From assembly GCA_029855935.1 (NCBI GenBank), contig JAGSHN010000022.1, positions 9,760-73,759 of the forward strand: a stretch of DNA of 64,000 bases, given 5' to 3'. Made by a program: the position numbers and the translations under genes. Below the pieces are notes generated by a model, which searched no databases, had not been told where the DNA came from, and saw only the letters and a program-made list of their open reading frames with translations. Below, one piece after another: positions 59,488-64,000 of this stretch (the stretch's first letter is position 1; every line of letters starts with the position of its first letter). Source of the stretch: Candidatus Thorarchaeota archaeon. GTDB lineage: Archaea > Asgardarchaeota > Thorarchaeia > Thorarchaeales > Thorarchaeaceae.

Positions 59488-62187
59488 CTATCCCTTTCCG
59501 CCTCTTCGCCTCGCCGCGACTCCAATCAGCACTATGAGCAGAACTCCCACGCCAATCAGAATCAGCGTCTGCTGTGAGAGAAAGCCAACTGGCGGCACTC
59601 CTCCGGCTGTCGTGCTCGTCGTCGTTGTGCTTGTGCTGGTAGTTGTGGATGTGGTCGTAGAGGTAGTCGTCGTGGCTGCAGCAATCACGGTCACGAGGAC
59701 TGAGTCGTGTGCCGAGTTTGACACCGCATCGTAGACAACAAGCGTGTAGTTGTAGACACCGATGCTCAGTCCATCCACGTCAATCACGATGGGACCTCCG
59801 TCCCAGCTACCCGACTCGACAAGCGAGCCGTTCCTGTAGACCTCGTAACTCTCAGGGTTGGTATCGGATGGACTCCACGTGATGTTGTTCCACGTTGTCC
59901 CCGCTTCATACCCGAAATCGGGTGGACTATCGATTGTTGGAGGTGTCACATCCAATACAGTGACGAACACCGTGTCAGGCACAGAATGCGATCCAGCATC
60001 ATAGACAACTAGCGTGTAGTTGTAGATACCCATGCCAAGACCATCAATGCTGAATGTGAGTGACCTGCCACACCAGTCGCCGTAGTGTCTGAGGGTGCTG
60101 TTTACGTAGAGCTCAAATGAAACCGGATAGTCATCGGTTGGGCTCCAAGTGATGTTGTGGCCAGTGGTTCCCTCCGCATACGTCTGGTCCTGCGGCGAGT
60201 CCACCGTCGGCCACGTCGTGTCGGTGAACGTAGTTGGATAGTAGTCCTTGCTGTCTGCCGAGCCGGAGATGTTGTACGTCCCACTCCCGCCGTAGTCATC
60301 CCACGCATTGCCAAGGCCTGTCGTGTTCCACTGATTGTTGGTCCCGTCATCAACGGCATTTGAACCAGTGTTGCGTGCAAGGACATTGGAGTGGACCACG
60401 GCGCCGTCGGTGCCGGACGCCATACGAATTCCGTAGGAATTGGCAATCACCTTGTTGCCCGAGATGGTGGAGTTGTCAGATGAAGAAACATAGATTCCCG
60501 TAGTACCGCCCACAATGTAGTTGCCAGTGATTGTCGCGTTGGCCGAGTATGAGATTACAATGCTCCCCTTAGCGTTGCAGAGGGTGTTGTCGGAGATGAC
60601 TAGGTAGTCGGATTCGTAGGCGTAGACGCCGTTCTCGGTTGCGTTGGTGATTGAAGACTCACACAGGGTGTTGTTTGGGGAGCGCTCTAGGTAGAAGCCG
60701 CGTCTGTTGTTCAGGAGTTGCAGTCCTCTGAGTGTGTTGTTTTCCGATCTCTGAACGAAGACCCCGTAGAAGTTGTCACTGCTGAGGCTGCCGGTGACGG
60801 TGATGTTTGTGGAGTGGCCTATCTGAAGACCGTAGCCGATGTCTGTGAATCTACCGCCTTGAAGCACAACCCCGCTGCAATTGCCCAAGAGCACCTGAGC
60901 GTATACCTCGCCGTCAACGGTGCCGCCCCTCAGCCCCCAGAAGTATCCGATCGGAAGGCCGTTGACAGTATTGTCCGCGGTGACGTTTGCATACCAGCCC
61001 ATAATGGAGTCAGAATAGACTAGGAAGCCACCACTGACCATGGTGTTGTTGACCAGTGTTGTGTTGTAGGAGCTATAGCTGGCCACAGCTGCCTCACGCC
61101 CCGCCACAATGTAGTTGTCCGAGACATACGTGTTTGAACAACCTACGTAGACTCCACGCGCAGTCACATCTGTTATCCAATTGCCGACCATCGCATTCTG
61201 TTGTCCAGAGTACGAATCGAATATCCCGTCATATGCGCCTCTGATTGTGTTGCCGATGATTGTGTTCCGCGTTGAGTGTGCGAGATAGATGCCGTCGTAG
61301 GTGGAAAGCACAGTATTGTTCTCGACACGGCAACCCGTCGACCCTCCGAGCTGAATCGGGCGATAGAGGTTCTCGAAGTATCCGTCTCTGACCGTCACAT
61401 CGGTACAGTTTCCCAGCAGAATCTGAGAGTAGGCGGTGGCGTCTATGGTGCCCCCAGTCTTGTTCCAGAAGTATCCAATAGGGCGTCCGGCAACGATATT
61501 GTCAGGCGCGATGTTGTGCTCCCAGTACTCCACAGAACCTGTTATCGCAATGCCTCTGTCAAGAGTGTTGTTCGTCAGCGTGGCATTCCGCGCATCTGAG
61601 AGAATGAGTGCTTGCTCGTGGATTATGTTCGTGATTGTGTTGTTGACGACTACGGCGTTGTCAGAACCAAAGTTGAATACTATGCCGTTTCTCACTCCAT
61701 CTATGGTGTTGTTGGTGATAGCAATGCCGGGGGACACCGAGAGTCGTATACCCATACTGCCTCCCGCAATCTCGACCTGGTCAATGATACCATTCACGAC
61801 GCTCCCGAGATAGATGCCGGTTGAAGATGAGCCTCCGCTGAGCCTGCATCTTCGAACTATGAAGTACGCATCCGTGTTGCGGATGTCTATGCAGGTCCCG
61901 GTGGTGCCTATGCTGAATCCCTCCAAGACGTAGGGGTCCGCCTGAGTCCCGCTGCCAGTGAAGCCCTGCGTCGAAAAGTCACTATTTGATGTGATGACAA
62001 TAGGAGCGTGCCCGACATATCCCGAGGGAGTCCTCGGATGTGGTCCGAGCTCTGCTCCAATCTCGTCACGATCCGAATCACTGCCGAGAACCACAGGTGA
62101 CCGAAATAACCACACAGTACTCGAAAAGAGAACAATGACCAAACAAGTGACGAGAAGCCTAGTATCCTCTCGTAGCGAGAATCCCAT
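59488..62187 (-). CDS. Cell-surface glycoprotein: right-handed beta-helix (NosD/CASH) repeats, two Ig-like repeats, Thr-rich stalk, C-terminal TM
   Basis: Signal-like N-terminus; GIY..S..N.I..N.I repeats; two P..DSP.D..Y..GTT..NITWSP...GL..G.YNYTLVVYD units; poly-T/S; TM followed by RRRGGKG. Confidence 0.9.
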   Translation of the reverse strand: MGFSLREDTRLLVTCLVIVLFSSTVWLFRSPVVLGSDSDRDEIGAELGPHPRTPSGYVGHAPIVITSNSDFSTQGFTGSGTQADPYVLEGFSIGTTGTCIDIRNTDAYFIVRRCRLSGGSSSTGIYLGSVVNGIIDQVEIAGGSMGIRLSVSPGIAITNNTIDGVRNGIVFNFGSDNAVVVNNTITNIIHEQALILSDARNATLTNNTLDRGIAITGSVEYWEHNIAPDNIVAGRPIGYFWNKTGGTIDATAYSQILLGNCTDVTVRDGYFENLYRPIQLGGSTGCRVENNTVLSTYDGIYLAHSTRNTIIGNTIRGAYDGIFDSYSGQQNAMVGNWITDVTARGVYVGCSNTYVSDNYIVAGREAAVASYSSYNTTLVNNTMVSGGFLVYSDSIMGWYANVTADNTVNGLPIGYFWGLRGGTVDGEVYAQVLLGNCSGVVLQGGRFTDIGYGLQIGHSTNITVTGSLSSDNFYGVFVQRSENNTLRGLQLLNNRRGFYLERSPNNTLCESSITNATENGVYAYESDYLVISDNTLCNAKGSIVISYSANATITGNYIVGGTTGIYVSSSDNSTISGNKVIANSYGIRMASGTDGAVVHSNVLARNTGSNAVDDGTNNQWNTTGLGNAWDDYGGSGTYNISGSADSKDYYPTTFTDTTWPTVDSPQDQTYAEGTTGHNITWSPTDDYPVSFELYVNSTLRHYGDWCGRSLTFSIDGLGMGIYNYTLVVYDAGSHSVPDTVFVTVLDVTPPTIDSPPDFGYEAGTTWNNITWSPSDTNPESYEVYRNGSLVESGSWDGGPIVIDVDGLSIGVYNYTLVVYDAVSNSAHDSVLVTVIAAATTTTSTTTSTTTSTSTTTTSTTAGGVPPVGFLSQQTLILIGVGVLLIVLIGVAARRRGGKG

Positions 62188-62623: not shown

Positions 62624-62917
62624 CTACGCACAACAATGGCTAGACCTTTCAGAGCCACTACCAGACCCCGAGTTGGAGCCGTCTCTCACTGGTCTGCACC
62701 AGATACATCCGCAACCCAGATTCTCGACAACAATGGCCTCGCCGAGGCAGTTTGCTGCACAGGCAGTGCAATTCGTGCAGTTCTCACCCCGTGCAACAAC
62801 AGCGGGACCCGCCTCGGGAAGTTCCCAGACGTCGAAGGGACATACTTCAAGGCACATCCCACATCGGACACACCGAGATGGGTGGTATCGAAATCCTGCC
62901 CGACTTGTTACCTGCAT
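62624..62917 (-). CDS. hgcB: HgcB-like 2[4Fe-4S] ferredoxin
   Basis: CVRCGMCLEVC and CTNCTACAANC, LGCGC, Ser/Gly tail ending HCCA; directly downstream of the hgcA-like gene. Confidence 0.72.
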   Translation of the reverse strand: MQVTSRAGFRYHPSRCVRCGMCLEVCPFDVWELPEAGPAVVARGENCTNCTACAANCLGEAIVVENLGCGCIWCRPVRDGSNSGSGSGSERSSHCCA

Positions 62918-62923
62918 TTCTCA

Positions 62924-64000
62924 TCACCAACCCAAGTACAGTGCTACGATATTGAACGCGATCAGAAGTGGAATACCCACTATCAACAGTAACCTGAGCA
63001 ACGGATACTCCGCCCGTATTGCCTTCGGATCGCTCACAGTAGTCAGACCAGAGTAGTCCAATGTCAGCGCAATTGACAGGATGAACTGGATAGTCAGCCA
63101 GCTGACGAAGATCCGTGGCCCGACTCTCAGCAAGAGCATCACAAGGGCTCCCACCGGCAGCGTGAGCATCGCGAGACCAAGGCCCCTCCGTACGAACGAG
63201 TTTCCGTGTGAGGGAAGAATGGGAAACACGACGCCCAGGACCAAGGAGTACGCAAAGAGCGCAAAGAGAAGCTCTCCCAAGAACAGCAGCAGCGAATTTG
63301 CGAGGGCCGAGATCAAATCGGCAACATGTGGAGCAAAGACAGCGGTACCCAGACTCACGAAGACGAGCGCAAAGGATGCGAGAGCAAATGGATAAAGTAG
63401 CCCCATCTTCATCAAGAAGGGAACGTGGACCAGCGATTGGGTCATTCGTTCCTTGATGTCGAAGGTGACAGTGGCCATCTGTCGAGGCTTAGGCGAGGGT
63501 CTTCCGACATTCAACCACTGGGCCAAGTCGTGAATTCTGACTGGGCCGTACCGCGCTCTGAACTCGCTCCGTTCTGAGATCTGCCGGGCCACCACGCCAG
63601 CGGCGGACAGCTGGGGCAGAATGACCTCGCGATGGCTGACCTTGTCCTCAAGGCGCGTGAGGTAGATCATATTGATGACATCGTCCGTGTTGAAGTGTGT
63701 CCCGCGCGCCGCGCACCACACATTGATCCCGTCTGTGTCACAGACAAGGACCCACGCATCAAGATTGTCAGCTCGCAGCGCCCGCATCACGGTATAGTAT
63801 GTATATTCGTAGTTGGCCGTCACAATGACTGGACTGTTCGAGGACGGAGAACCAGCGCGATACAGACCGGGCTGAATCGGAATTCCCCGCCAAGAACCGG
63901 GGACACGGTCATAGGCCATACGTAGTCTGACAACAAGGCCGGAGTACGGTTTCTGGCGGTTCTCATGTTCAGAGGAGGGAGCGTCATTCGAACGACACGC
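62924..64000 (-). CDS. hgcA: HgcA-like corrinoid protein with C-terminal TM domain (5' end may lie beyond the window)
   Basis: PGLY, SPVIVTANY, DTDGINVWCAA, ILPQLSAAGV, YGPVRI; about 5 TM helices. The frame has no stop between ATG 63919 and position 64000. Confidence 0.8.
   Translation of the reverse strand, partial: ACRSNDAPSSEHENRQKPYSGLVVRLRMAYDRVPGSWRGIPIQPGLYRAGSPSSNSPVIVTANYEYTYYTVMRALRADNLDAWVLVCDTDGINVWCAARGTHFNTDDVINMIYLTRLEDKVSHREVILPQLSAAGVVARQISERSEFRARYGPVRIHDLAQWLNVGRPSPKPRQMATVTFDIKERMTQSLVHVPFLMKMGLLYPFALASFALVFVSLGTAVFAPHVADLISALANSLLLFLGELLFALFAYSLVLGVVFPILPSHGNSFVRRGLGLAMLTLPVGALVMLLLRVGPRIFVSWLTIQFILSIALTLDYSGLTTVSDPKAIRAEYPLLRLLLIVGIPLLIAFNIVALYLGW

What the first reader, a model, noticed from the sequence alone, without database searches (positions are those of the whole stretch)
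62624..64000. Non-canonical hgcA/hgcB-like corrinoid-ferredoxin module, possibly with an extra N-terminal domain
Seen: a corrinoid-binding domain with GINVWCAARGTHF plus about 5 TM helices, followed 6 nt later by a 2[4Fe-4S] ferredoxin with GCGC and a terminal CC. Established: mercury-methylating HgcA has N(V/I)WCA(A/G)GK, and HgcB typically has C(M/I)ECGAC plus terminal cysteines. Both proteins deviate here (CAARG, CTNCTAC, extra CGCIWC), yet the cobalt-ligating Cys and the HgcB Cys tail are kept and the genes are unfused. Seen: the hgcA frame stays open for 27 more codons to the window edge. Inference: a divergent metal(loid) methylation or methyl-transfer system in an Asgard-type archaeon, perhaps fused to a methyl-donor domain, with a substrate that may not be Hg.
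Basis: partly seen in the sequence, partly recalled or inferred. Interest (0 to 1): 0.85.

Follow-up and report, generated by a model that had tools for sequence, protein, structure and literature searches.

The report
SAM-methyltransferase fused to HgcA-like protein
An Asgard (Thorarchaeota) archaeon encodes a relative of the mercury-methylating enzyme HgcA fused to its own SAM-dependent methyltransferase, with an HgcB-like ferredoxin and an ArsR regulator beside it. The module is common in Asgard archaea, has never been tested, and its methyl acceptor is unknown and may not be mercury.

Summary
The window ends at a contig end. The next contig overlaps it by 151 identical bases, and an independent public contig is colinear across the junction. 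The full gene encodes 573-575 aa. It joins a class I SAM methyltransferase (best match NCBIfam CpaM, below cut-off) to an HgcA-like corrinoid domain (cap helix NVWCAARGTHF) and five membrane helices. An ArsR gene with a CVC site lies 2 nt upstream. A 97-aa HgcB-like ferredoxin lies 6 nt downstream.

In a tree the protein falls outside the canonical HgcA clade (NVWCAAGKGTF). It sits in a clade of 28 Asgard fusions that all carry NVWC(A/G)ARG. A profile of the fusion matches 139 of 301 sampled Asgard genomes. Relatives have the three parts separate, pairwise fused or triple-fused.

I read it as a SAM to cobalt to acceptor methyl-transfer module. The acceptor is perhaps a thiol-loving metal(loid), given the conserved HgcB cysteines and the ArsR. 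This is inferred, not shown.

The kind is partly catalogued (CpaM / HgcAB-like) and untested, and this scan has met it before in other genomes. It is a new variant of a known kind, of moderate interest.

The parts
62924..64000 (-). 3' part (residues 216-573 plus stop) of the gene for the SAM-methyltransferase-HgcA-like fusion. The first 215 codons (the methyltransferase domain) lie beyond the window edge on contig C15 (L002 152-796).
   Evidence: ORF open to the edge. Contig overlap and joined ORF. Identical 573-aa protein P0001 on an independent 571-kb contig.
63461..63883 (-). Corrinoid-binding domain (about residues 255-395), homologous to the C-terminal domain of the CFeSP large subunit.
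   Evidence: Pfam PF03599 72.6 bits. PDB sequence hits 2h9a/4c1n/4djd, corrinoid domain. The top Foldseek hit is the HgcAB integrative model 9a0b_A.
63692..63724 (-). Cap-helix motif NVWCAARGTHF (residues 308-318). Cys311 (63713-63715) is the presumed lower axial Co ligand.
   Evidence: N308 V309 W310 C311 and F318 are invariant in 78 fusions. NVWC(A/G)ARG is found in all Asgard fusions, against NVWCAAGKGTF in canonical HgcA.
62933..63457 (-). Membrane domain of five long helices (residues 397-571).
   Evidence: AlphaFold2 model, pLDDT 90.5, helices 397-437, 439-476, 484-505, 510-534 and 540-571.
62624..62917 (-). HgcB-like 2x[4Fe-4S] ferredoxin, 97 aa, 6 nt downstream. It has two CX2CX2CX3C motifs, GCGC after the second, and a C-terminal CC.
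   Evidence: A separate HgcB-like ORF follows the fusion in 21 of 22 Asgard loci. The Cys positions align with the canonical HgcB GVGC and terminal CC.

Best explanation
The finding is the 3' two thirds of a three-gene operon, arsR, then cpaM-hgcA-like fusion, then hgcB-like. It encodes a self-contained SAM / corrinoid / iron-sulfur methyl-transfer machine of the non-canonical 'CpaM plus HgcAB-like' kind. Proposed cycle: (1) the HgcB-like ferredoxin reduces the Cys311-ligated corrinoid of the HgcA-like domain to Co(I); (2) the fused class I methyltransferase domain binds SAM and presents its methyl group to Co(I), giving methyl-Co(III) and SAH; (3) the methyl group passes to an acceptor at the membrane face. 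The acceptor is probably a thiophilic metal(loid) held by the GCGC and C-terminal CC cysteines of the HgcB-like protein. A CVC-type ArsR controls transcription. Shown: gene structure, domain identities, fusion states, conservation, and placement outside canonical HgcA. Inferred: every chemical step and the acceptor.
For: The architecture is real: the joined ORF is confirmed by an independent contig.

The N-terminal domain is a class I SAM methyltransferase. Its best NCBIfam hit is CpaM, 'corrinoid protein-associated methyltransferase', at 146.9 bits, with the next family at 48 bits. GxGxG (G49/G51/G53) is invariant, as are E10, P13, Y16, E122 and E150; D70 and D112 are kept in at least 90% of the 78 fusions.

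Fusion pattern: the same three parts occur as MT-A plus B, as MT plus A plus B, as MT plus A-B, and as MT-A-B in Asgard, Chloroflexota, Desulfobacteraceae and others. A CpaM-like domain is fused or adjacent in 46 of 47 non-canonical loci, against 1 weak case in 40 canonical hgcA loci.

The AlphaFold2 model of the whole fusion is compact and confident: pLDDT 90.5, pTM 0.86. Docking the methyltransferase domain on the HgcA-like part gave weak support: score 0.33, best control 0.00. That mark was reached by 58 of 80 solved complexes and 2 of 110 mismatches, but scores of 0.60 or under, as here, were reached by only 7 of those 80 solved complexes and by both mismatches that passed. Runs agreed in at least 84% of contacts, and partner pLDDT was at least 70.

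Purified canonical HgcAB takes its methyl group from SAM via Co(I), with Co-S(Cys) ligation (PMC11588087).

Hints at a metal(loid) acceptor: the HgcB-like Cys equivalents of ND132 C73 and C94/C95 are conserved in the Asgard clade, but lost in the Chloroflexota partners and in a Thorarchaeota unfused paralogue. The adjacent ArsR carries CVC plus an N-terminal CC.

The genome uses cobamides: it has five B12-binding-domain proteins.
Against: No experiment exists for any member. No class I (Rossmann) methyltransferase is known, to my knowledge, to methylate a protein-bound corrinoid. Canonical HgcAB reacts with SAM without any such domain, so the extra domain may do something else. No arsenic, mercury or other metal-handling genes are conserved around 22 Asgard loci apart from the ArsR-family regulator. 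HgcAB-linked ArsR in ND132 also responds to SAH, so the regulator need not report a metal. The complex prediction is only weak support. The loci compared were ranked by similarity to the fused query, which favours fused forms.
Confidence: 0.6

Rival explanations
1. It is a true mercury methylase: a divergent HgcAB whose SAM-binding function sits in a separate fused domain.
For: It keeps the residues that mutagenesis in ND132 found critical, as cited in PMC11588087: HgcA Cys (C311 here) and the HgcB C73-like and C-terminal CC cysteines. It also keeps the rest of the cap motif, N-V-W. It has a transmembrane domain, an adjacent HgcB and an ArsR with CVC, as at many canonical hgcAB loci. It comes from a hydrothermal vent metagenome.
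Against: It lies outside the canonical HgcA clade, which has 100% SH-aLRT support. It scores below the NCBIfam HgcA and HgcB cut-offs. The GK of the diagnostic motif is replaced by RG in the whole clade. The only two tested organisms with non-canonical (fused) HgcAB made no methylmercury (PMC4646819, PMC5893877).
Confidence: 0.12
2. The methyltransferase domain is only a repair module. Like the AdoMet domain of methionine synthase, it re-methylates oxidised Co(II) with SAM and an electron from the ferredoxin. The catalytic methyl donor would be another compound, such as a methylated pterin, amine or thiol.
For: MetH likewise carries its SAM-dependent reactivation domain fused 1:1 (established knowledge). 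A ferredoxin partner fits reductive activation. Corrinoid proteins of the CFeSP family normally use methyl-pterin donors.
Against: No pterin-, methylamine- or methanol-type methyltransferase is conserved in 22 Asgard loci. Canonical HgcAB uses SAM catalytically and does not use methyl-THF. This genome has no other PF03599 protein and no Cdh genes.
Confidence: 0.15
3. The corrinoid and ferredoxin act as a reductase, for example in dehalogenation of halomethanes, and the methyltransferase domain acts independently on another substrate.
For: A 2026 preprint reports CCl4 dechlorination by heterologously expressed canonical HgcAB.
Against: The strict coupling of the CpaM-like domain with non-canonical HgcA-like proteins, through every fusion state, argues for one shared reaction. 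A single unreviewed report on the canonical enzyme says nothing about this clade.
Confidence: 0.05

Closest known systems
[quoted passage not shown]
   Same: The same three functional parts are present: a class I SAM methyltransferase, an HgcA-like corrinoid plus membrane protein with N(V/I)WC but no GK, and a 2x[4Fe-4S] ferredoxin. These are the best-scoring families for both halves. In the tree both lie outside canonical HgcA.
   Different: Here the methyltransferase is fused to the N-terminus of the HgcA-like protein and the ferredoxin is a separate gene, the opposite fusion pattern. All three NCBIfam scores are below their cut-offs. The Asgard clade has its own cap motif, NVWC(A/G)ARG, an HgcB with GCGC plus a terminal CC, and in Thorarchaeota a coupled ArsR.
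Canonical HgcA/HgcB mercury methylase (NF040863 / NF040864), e.g. Pseudodesulfovibrio mercurii ND132
   Same: It shares the corrinoid domain with a Cys-bearing cap helix, the C-terminal membrane domain, the adjacent 2x[4Fe-4S] ferredoxin with C73-like and C-terminal Cys, and frequent ArsR-family neighbours. SAM is the experimentally shown methyl donor (PMC11588087).
   Different: It is a separate clade with 100% SH-aLRT support. Its motif is NVWCAAGKGTF. It has no fused or adjacent CpaM-like methyltransferase: 1 weak case in 40 loci. Mercury methylation is shown only for this canonical clade.
CFeSP / CdhD-CdhE corrinoid iron-sulfur protein of acetyl-CoA synthase
   Same: Homologous corrinoid-binding domain (PF03599; PDB 2h9a, 4djd).
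   Different: It has no Cys cap helix and no membrane domain, it carries a TIM-barrel and an N-terminal 4Fe-4S domain, and it is encoded in cdh/acs operons. This genome has no such genes.
Methionine synthase MetH reactivation (AdoMet) domain
   Same: It is a SAM-binding domain covalently tethered to a cobalamin domain, and it methylates cobalt with an electron from a flavodoxin or ferredoxin.
   Different: It has an unrelated fold (not class I Rossmann) and serves repair, not catalysis. No homology was detected here.

Membership tests
Canonical HgcA (NCBIfam NF040863) | Score at or above the curated cut-off of 275 bits | tested here: not met
   181.2 bits
Canonical HgcA (NCBIfam NF040863) | Cap-helix motif N(V/I)WCA(A/G)GK | tested here: not met
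   The motif is NVWCAARG: N-V-W-C-A-A is kept and GK is replaced by RG. The same holds in all Asgard fusions.
Canonical HgcA (NCBIfam NF040863) | Placement inside the canonical HgcA clade | tested here: not met
   The canonical clade of 40 rows has 100% SH-aLRT support. The window protein lies outside it, in a clade of 28 Asgard fusions with 96% support (quick IQ-TREE, CdhE outgroup).
Canonical HgcA (NCBIfam NF040863) | C-terminal membrane domain and adjacent hgcB | tested here: met
   Five helices, residues 397-571. The ferredoxin gene lies 6 nt downstream.
Canonical HgcA (NCBIfam NF040863) | Mercury methylation activity | not testable with these tools
   Needs an assay.
HgcAB-like fusion protein (NF043039) | Score at or above the cut-off of 285 bits | tested here: not met
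   203.9 bits for the HgcA-like part and 43.4 bits for the ferredoxin. It is the best-scoring family.
HgcAB-like fusion protein (NF043039) | HgcA-like and HgcB-like parts in one polypeptide | tested here: not met
   A stop codon and a 6-nt spacer separate them. The ferredoxin ORF is separate in 21 of 22 Asgard loci.
HgcAB-like fusion protein (NF043039) | Partnership with a CpaM methyltransferase | tested here: met
   A CpaM-like domain is fused in frame at the N-terminus.
CpaM, corrinoid protein-associated methyltransferase (NF043040) | Score at or above the cut-off of 180 bits | tested here: not met
   146.9 bits over profile positions 3-200 of 216; the next family scores 48 bits.
CpaM, corrinoid protein-associated methyltransferase (NF043040) | Class I SAM-binding motifs | tested here: met
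   VLDLGCGPG is present. G49, G51 and G53 are invariant, and D70 and D112 are kept in at least 90% of sequences. Pfam Methyltransf_25 scores 68.8 bits.
HgcB ferredoxin (NF040864) | Score at or above the cut-off of 99 bits | tested here: not met
   50.1 bits.
HgcB ferredoxin (NF040864) | Two CX2CX2CX3C motifs, a Cys after cluster 2 (C73 of ND132) and a C-terminal Cys pair | tested here: met
   CVRCGMCLEVC, CTNCTACAANC, GCGC and HCCA align with the canonical GVGC and terminal CC.
CdhD/CdhE (CFeSP of acetyl-CoA synthase) | PF03599 domain | tested here: met
   72.6 bits against a cut-off of 24.8, but only profile positions 269-360 of 387 match.
CdhD/CdhE (CFeSP of acetyl-CoA synthase) | Full-length Cdh architecture within a cdh operon | tested here: not met
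   It is the only PF03599 match in the 97%-complete genome and there are no Cdh genes. Thorarchaeota CdhE sequences form the outgroup on a branch of length 1.75.

The most novel reading that the evidence does not exclude
The Asgard NVWC(A/G)ARG clade is a cobalamin-dependent metal(loid) methylase acting on As(III), Sb(III), Hg(II) or a similar soft element. A hard-wired class I methyltransferase domain loads SAM-derived methyl groups onto a Cys-ligated corrinoid. The Cys tail of the HgcB-like ferredoxin delivers the metal. A CVC-type ArsR switches the operon on. That would be a second enzymatic route to methylated metalloids, independent of ArsM, present in about half of sampled Asgard genomes. 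It could also be the ancestral chemistry from which mercury methylation arose.
Probability: 0.25. Interest if true: 0.8.

Novelty: new variant of a known kind. Interest (0 to 1): 0.5.

Why it matters
Why HgcAB exists, and what its relatives do, is an open question in mercury biogeochemistry. In 2024 SAM was shown, unexpectedly, to be the methyl donor of canonical HgcAB, which has no recognisable SAM-binding domain.

The sister family described here ties a classical SAM methyltransferase to the HgcA-like protein in every possible fusion state. That supports a SAM to cobalt route independently, and it offers a tractable single-polypeptide system for studying that step.

There is also a practical point. 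Surveys that call hgcA by the motif N(V/I)WCA(A/G) alone, as in PMC12484752, would accept these Asgard genes (NVWCAARG) as mercury methylators. On present evidence that is unwarranted.

The data also correct the description of the Asgard sequences as 'fused hgcAB'. In this clade hgcB is separate, and the fusion is with a methyltransferase.

Tried and rejected
- **CdhD/E reading: rejected.** Only the corrinoid sub-domain matches, the genome has no other PF03599 or Cdh genes, and the tree separates the two.
- **ArsM-like direct arsenite methyltransferase: rejected as a family assignment.** The ArsM models score 33-39 bits against cut-offs of 263-575. No cysteine other than the motif-I Cys is conserved in the methyltransferase domain.
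Clustering ORFs from 22 Asgard loci showed only the fusion, the HgcB-like gene and the ArsR as widely conserved. A Lokiarchaeota subgroup adds MarR, an FMN reductase, an MFS transporter and a cupin, but no ArsB/Acr3/ArsC.
- **The neighbouring genes of this genome are not conserved elsewhere, so they are not part of the module.** These are two radical SAM genes, a PEMT-like methyltransferase and the 899-aa beta-helix surface protein.
- **Expression: no RNA holder listed.** The only run holding the sequence is a hydrothermal-vent DNA metagenome that may be the source.
- **Literature: five full-text searches found no paper describing a methyltransferase-HgcA fusion or CpaM.** About 1.7 million PMC articles and subscription journals are not covered.
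- **Model geometry: the coordinates of the predicted model are not available to scripts.** The distance from the SAM pocket to the cap helix could therefore not be measured.
- **Tree limits.** The root and the relations among the non-canonical groups are unresolved. The CdhE outgroup fills only 44% of the columns, and the tree was a 'quick' search.
Full report
**1. The observation**

On the - strand, the ORF listing gives an ORF from 62924 that is still open at 64000. It has 358 codons, and the first ATG, at 63919, leaves 27 further open codons. A 97-aa ORF follows at 62624-62917.

The first protein contains GINVWCAARGTHF. The second contains CVRCGMCLEVCP, CTNCTACAANC, GCGCIWC and a terminal HCCA. 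The junction reads TGG TGA TGAGAA ATG, a 6-nt spacer.

| Library | Protein | Family | Bits | Cut-off |
|---|---|---|---|---|
| Pfam | first | CdhD, PF03599 (profile positions 269-360) | 72.6 | 24.8 |
| Pfam | second | 4Fe-4S dicluster families | - | - |
| NCBIfam | first | HgcAB_like | 203.9 | 285 |
| NCBIfam | first | HgcA_corrinoid | 181.2 | 275 |
| NCBIfam | second | HgcB_ferredoxin | 50.1 | 99 |

Pfam results are and NCBIfam results.

**2. Beyond the window edge**

The window is G000:C13:9760-73759 and ends at the contig end. Contig C15 begins with the same 151 bases. Exact 151-nt end overlaps link many contig pairs of this assembly.

Joining C13 and C15 extends the frame to a 575-codon ORF. 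Homologues begin MAVA(Y/F)M, which points to the second GTG and gives 573 aa. That start lies 2 nt after the stop of an upstream ArsR gene.

The join is not an assembly guess. The identical 573-aa protein (P0001) is on record from a 571,596-bp NCBI contig, JALVPO010000004.1. The 17.7 kb around it is colinear with my join in all but one of the 200-base blocks tested.

The extra 215 residues are a class I SAM methyltransferase. Pfam Methyltransf_25 scores 68.8 bits. The best NCBIfam family is NF043040, 'corrinoid protein-associated methyltransferase CpaM', at 146.9 bits against a cut-off of 180; the next family scores 48 bits.

The upstream gene is an ArsR/SmtB metalloregulator (NF033788, 69.5 bits).

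**3. Fold**

AlphaFold2 was run with a 78-row alignment of fusions. The model has mean pLDDT 90.5 and pTM 0.86. It shows:
- a Rossmann-type N-terminal domain;
- a corrinoid domain with a short cap helix at residues 309-314;
- five long helices at residues 397-571.

Foldseek against the PDB ranks the HgcAB integrative model 9a0b_A first (E 6e-13). Small-molecule class I SAM methyltransferases and CFeSP follow. By sequence, the only solved relatives are CFeSP corrinoid domains and generic methyltransferases.

**4. Relatives and fusion states**

The word-indexed search returned 1199 hits. The best 120 are almost all proteins of 550-590 aa with methyltransferase plus CdhD Pfam domains. Where a source names them, they are called only 'methyltransferase domain-containing protein'. 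They come from Thor-, Sif-, Loki/Prometh-, Hermod- and Odinarchaeota.

The cap motif separates the groups cleanly:

| Group | Cap motif |
|---|---|
| Asgard fusions (all of them) | NVWC(A/G)ARGxxF |
| Canonical HgcA | NVWCAAGKGTF |
| Other non-canonical forms | GGG, CGG, SGG and similar in place of GK |

The species-representative genomes hold full-length fusions outside the Asgard group as well: in Chloroflexota/Anaerolineales, in Poribacteria, and as triple fusions in Desulfobacteraceae.

Within Thorarchaeota alone I found three paralogous versions:
- ArsR, then MT-HgcA-like, then HgcB-like;
- an unfused MT / HgcA-like / HgcB-like operon;
- a 640-643-aa MT-HgcA-HgcB triple fusion.

A profile of the methyltransferase domain finds it fused or adjacent in 46 of 47 non-canonical loci, against one weak 38-bit neighbour in 40 canonical loci. 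One caveat applies: the loci were ranked by similarity to the fused query.

A profile of the whole fusion matches 139 of 301 sampled genomes of the phylum at E <= 1e-40, and 45 of 90 high-quality genomes. About 90 genomes have a single open frame covering the whole profile. Within the window's own genus the distribution is patchy: 1 of 4 other genomes has a match.

**5. Phylogeny**

The tree covers the HgcA-like core: 114 rows, 302 columns, IQ-TREE LG+C20 by PMSF, quick search, with Thorarchaeota CdhE as outgroup.
- All 40 canonical sequences form one clade (SH-aLRT 100).
- The window protein lies in a clade of 28 Asgard fusions (96), inside a Thorarchaeota subclade of 8 (99).
- Relations among the non-canonical groups, and the root, are unresolved.

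The genome's only PF03599 protein is this one. It has no CdhD/E, whereas about half of the related genomes do.

**6. Partners**

*HgcB-like gene.* It follows the fusion in 21 of 22 Asgard loci. In the alignment, the Asgard ferredoxins keep the two cluster motifs. They also keep a GCGC that aligns with the canonical GVGC (C73 of ND132) and a C-terminal CC. The partners of the Chloroflexota fusions and of the unfused Thorarchaeota paralogue have lost both features.

*ArsR.* It lies directly upstream in 6 of 7 distinct Thorarchaeota loci and nearby in several Lokiarchaeota loci. These regulators carry a CVC site, and in Thorarchaeota an N-terminal (P)CC as well. ArsR proteins next to canonical hgcAB also carry CVC.

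*Other neighbours.* No other neighbour is conserved, and no ars or mer genes are.

**7. What is known**

- Fused HgcAB was found by Podar et al. 2015. P. furiosus made no methylmercury, and neither did M. methylutens.
- Lin et al. 2023 placed Thor- and Lokiarchaeota sequences in the 'HgcAB subtree' and read this as an ancient hgcA-hgcB fusion. They had removed the first 327 alignment columns as poorly aligned. That step would discard a 215-residue N-terminal domain such as the one described here.
- In the clade described here, hgcB is in fact separate and the fusion is with a methyltransferase.
- Zheng et al. 2024 showed that purified canonical HgcAB is methylated at Co(I) by SAM, not by methyl-THF, with Co-S(Cys) ligation.
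- Gionfriddo et al. showed that the hgcAB-linked ArsR of ND132 responds to arsenic and to SAH.
- Five full-text searches found no paper on CpaM or on a methyltransferase-HgcA fusion.
- Earlier notes of this scan describe the same kind in at least 27 other genomes.

**8. Mechanism**

The repeated fusion and fission of the three parts argue that they act in one reaction. The most economical reading has three steps:
- the ferredoxin reduces the corrinoid to Co(I);
- the methyltransferase domain supplies the SAM methyl group;
- methyl-Co(III) passes the methyl group to an acceptor.

A docking test of the methyltransferase domain against the HgcA-like part gave weak support: 0.33 against a best control of 0.00. 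That mark was reached by 58 of 80 solved complexes and 2 of 110 mismatches. Passes at 0.60 or under are more often wrong than right unless the guess was likely beforehand.

The conserved HgcB cysteines and the CVC ArsR point to a soft metal(loid) acceptor. This is inference only.

The rivals are:
- a true mercury methylase;
- a MetH-like repair role for the SAM domain;
- a reductase role for the corrinoid and ferredoxin.

**9. Verdict**

The functional inference is plausible but untested.

The gene is an ordinary member of a very common, partly catalogued and experimentally untouched family. I rate it a new variant of a known kind, interest 0.5.

Noticed in passing
window 63850-64000 and the contig ends of G000: Many contig pairs of this assembly overlap by exactly 151 identical bases at their ends (C13-C15, C5-C28, C12-C18, C14-C21, C25-C26, C29-C30, C10-C16). 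Genes cut at such ends can probably be completed by simple joining, as was done here.
   Followed up: partly
L106-L112 (Thorarchaeota genomes G056, G058, G021, G026, G011, G001): Single Thorarchaeota genomes carry up to three paralogous MT / HgcA-like / HgcB-like modules in different fusion states: unfused three-gene operon, MT-A plus B, and a 640-643-aa triple fusion. Each has its own cap motif (NVWCGSRGGHV, NVWCAARG, NVWCASCGKNF).
   Followed up: partly
L002 1179-1201 (contig C15, just upstream of the arsR start at 1173): An A/T-rich palindrome, TTGTATAAAC GGG GTTTATATAA, overlaps a TATA-like box directly upstream of arsR. It may be the ArsR operator and promoter of the operon.
   Followed up: partly
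L004 9729-10022 (equals window 62624-62917): The 97-aa HgcB-like ORF is missing from the genes called on the public 571-kb contig in the collection, although it is conserved in 21 of 22 Asgard loci.
   Followed up: partly
whole genome G000: This 97%-complete Thorarchaeota genome has no CdhD/CdhE, the corrinoid protein of acetyl-CoA synthase, although about half of the sampled genomes of its order do. Elsewhere in the order the HgcA-like fusion was found only in genera that also hold Cdh genes, and here it occurs without them.
   Followed up: partly
window 59488-62187 (-): An 899-aa protein with a signal/anchor sequence, many right-handed beta-helix-like repeats (NNT..., GIY...), two repeated about 100-aa C-terminal modules, a Thr/Ser-rich stalk and a C-terminal membrane anchor. 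It is probably a surface protein and is not conserved next to the module elsewhere.
   Followed up: no
L027 5746-6357, L021 6143-6607 and neighbours: In a Lokiarchaeota subgroup the fusion is flanked by a MarR regulator, an NADPH-dependent FMN reductase (PF03358, the family that includes ArsH), an MFS transporter and a cupin. This may be a distinct regulatory and redox context for the same module.
   Followed up: partly
G199, G215, G133, G219 and others (table): Several Asgard genomes show matches to the fusion profile that are interrupted by 1-9 in-frame stop codons. Some are probably adjacent unfused genes read through; others (9 TAA in G215) look like decayed copies.
   Followed up: no
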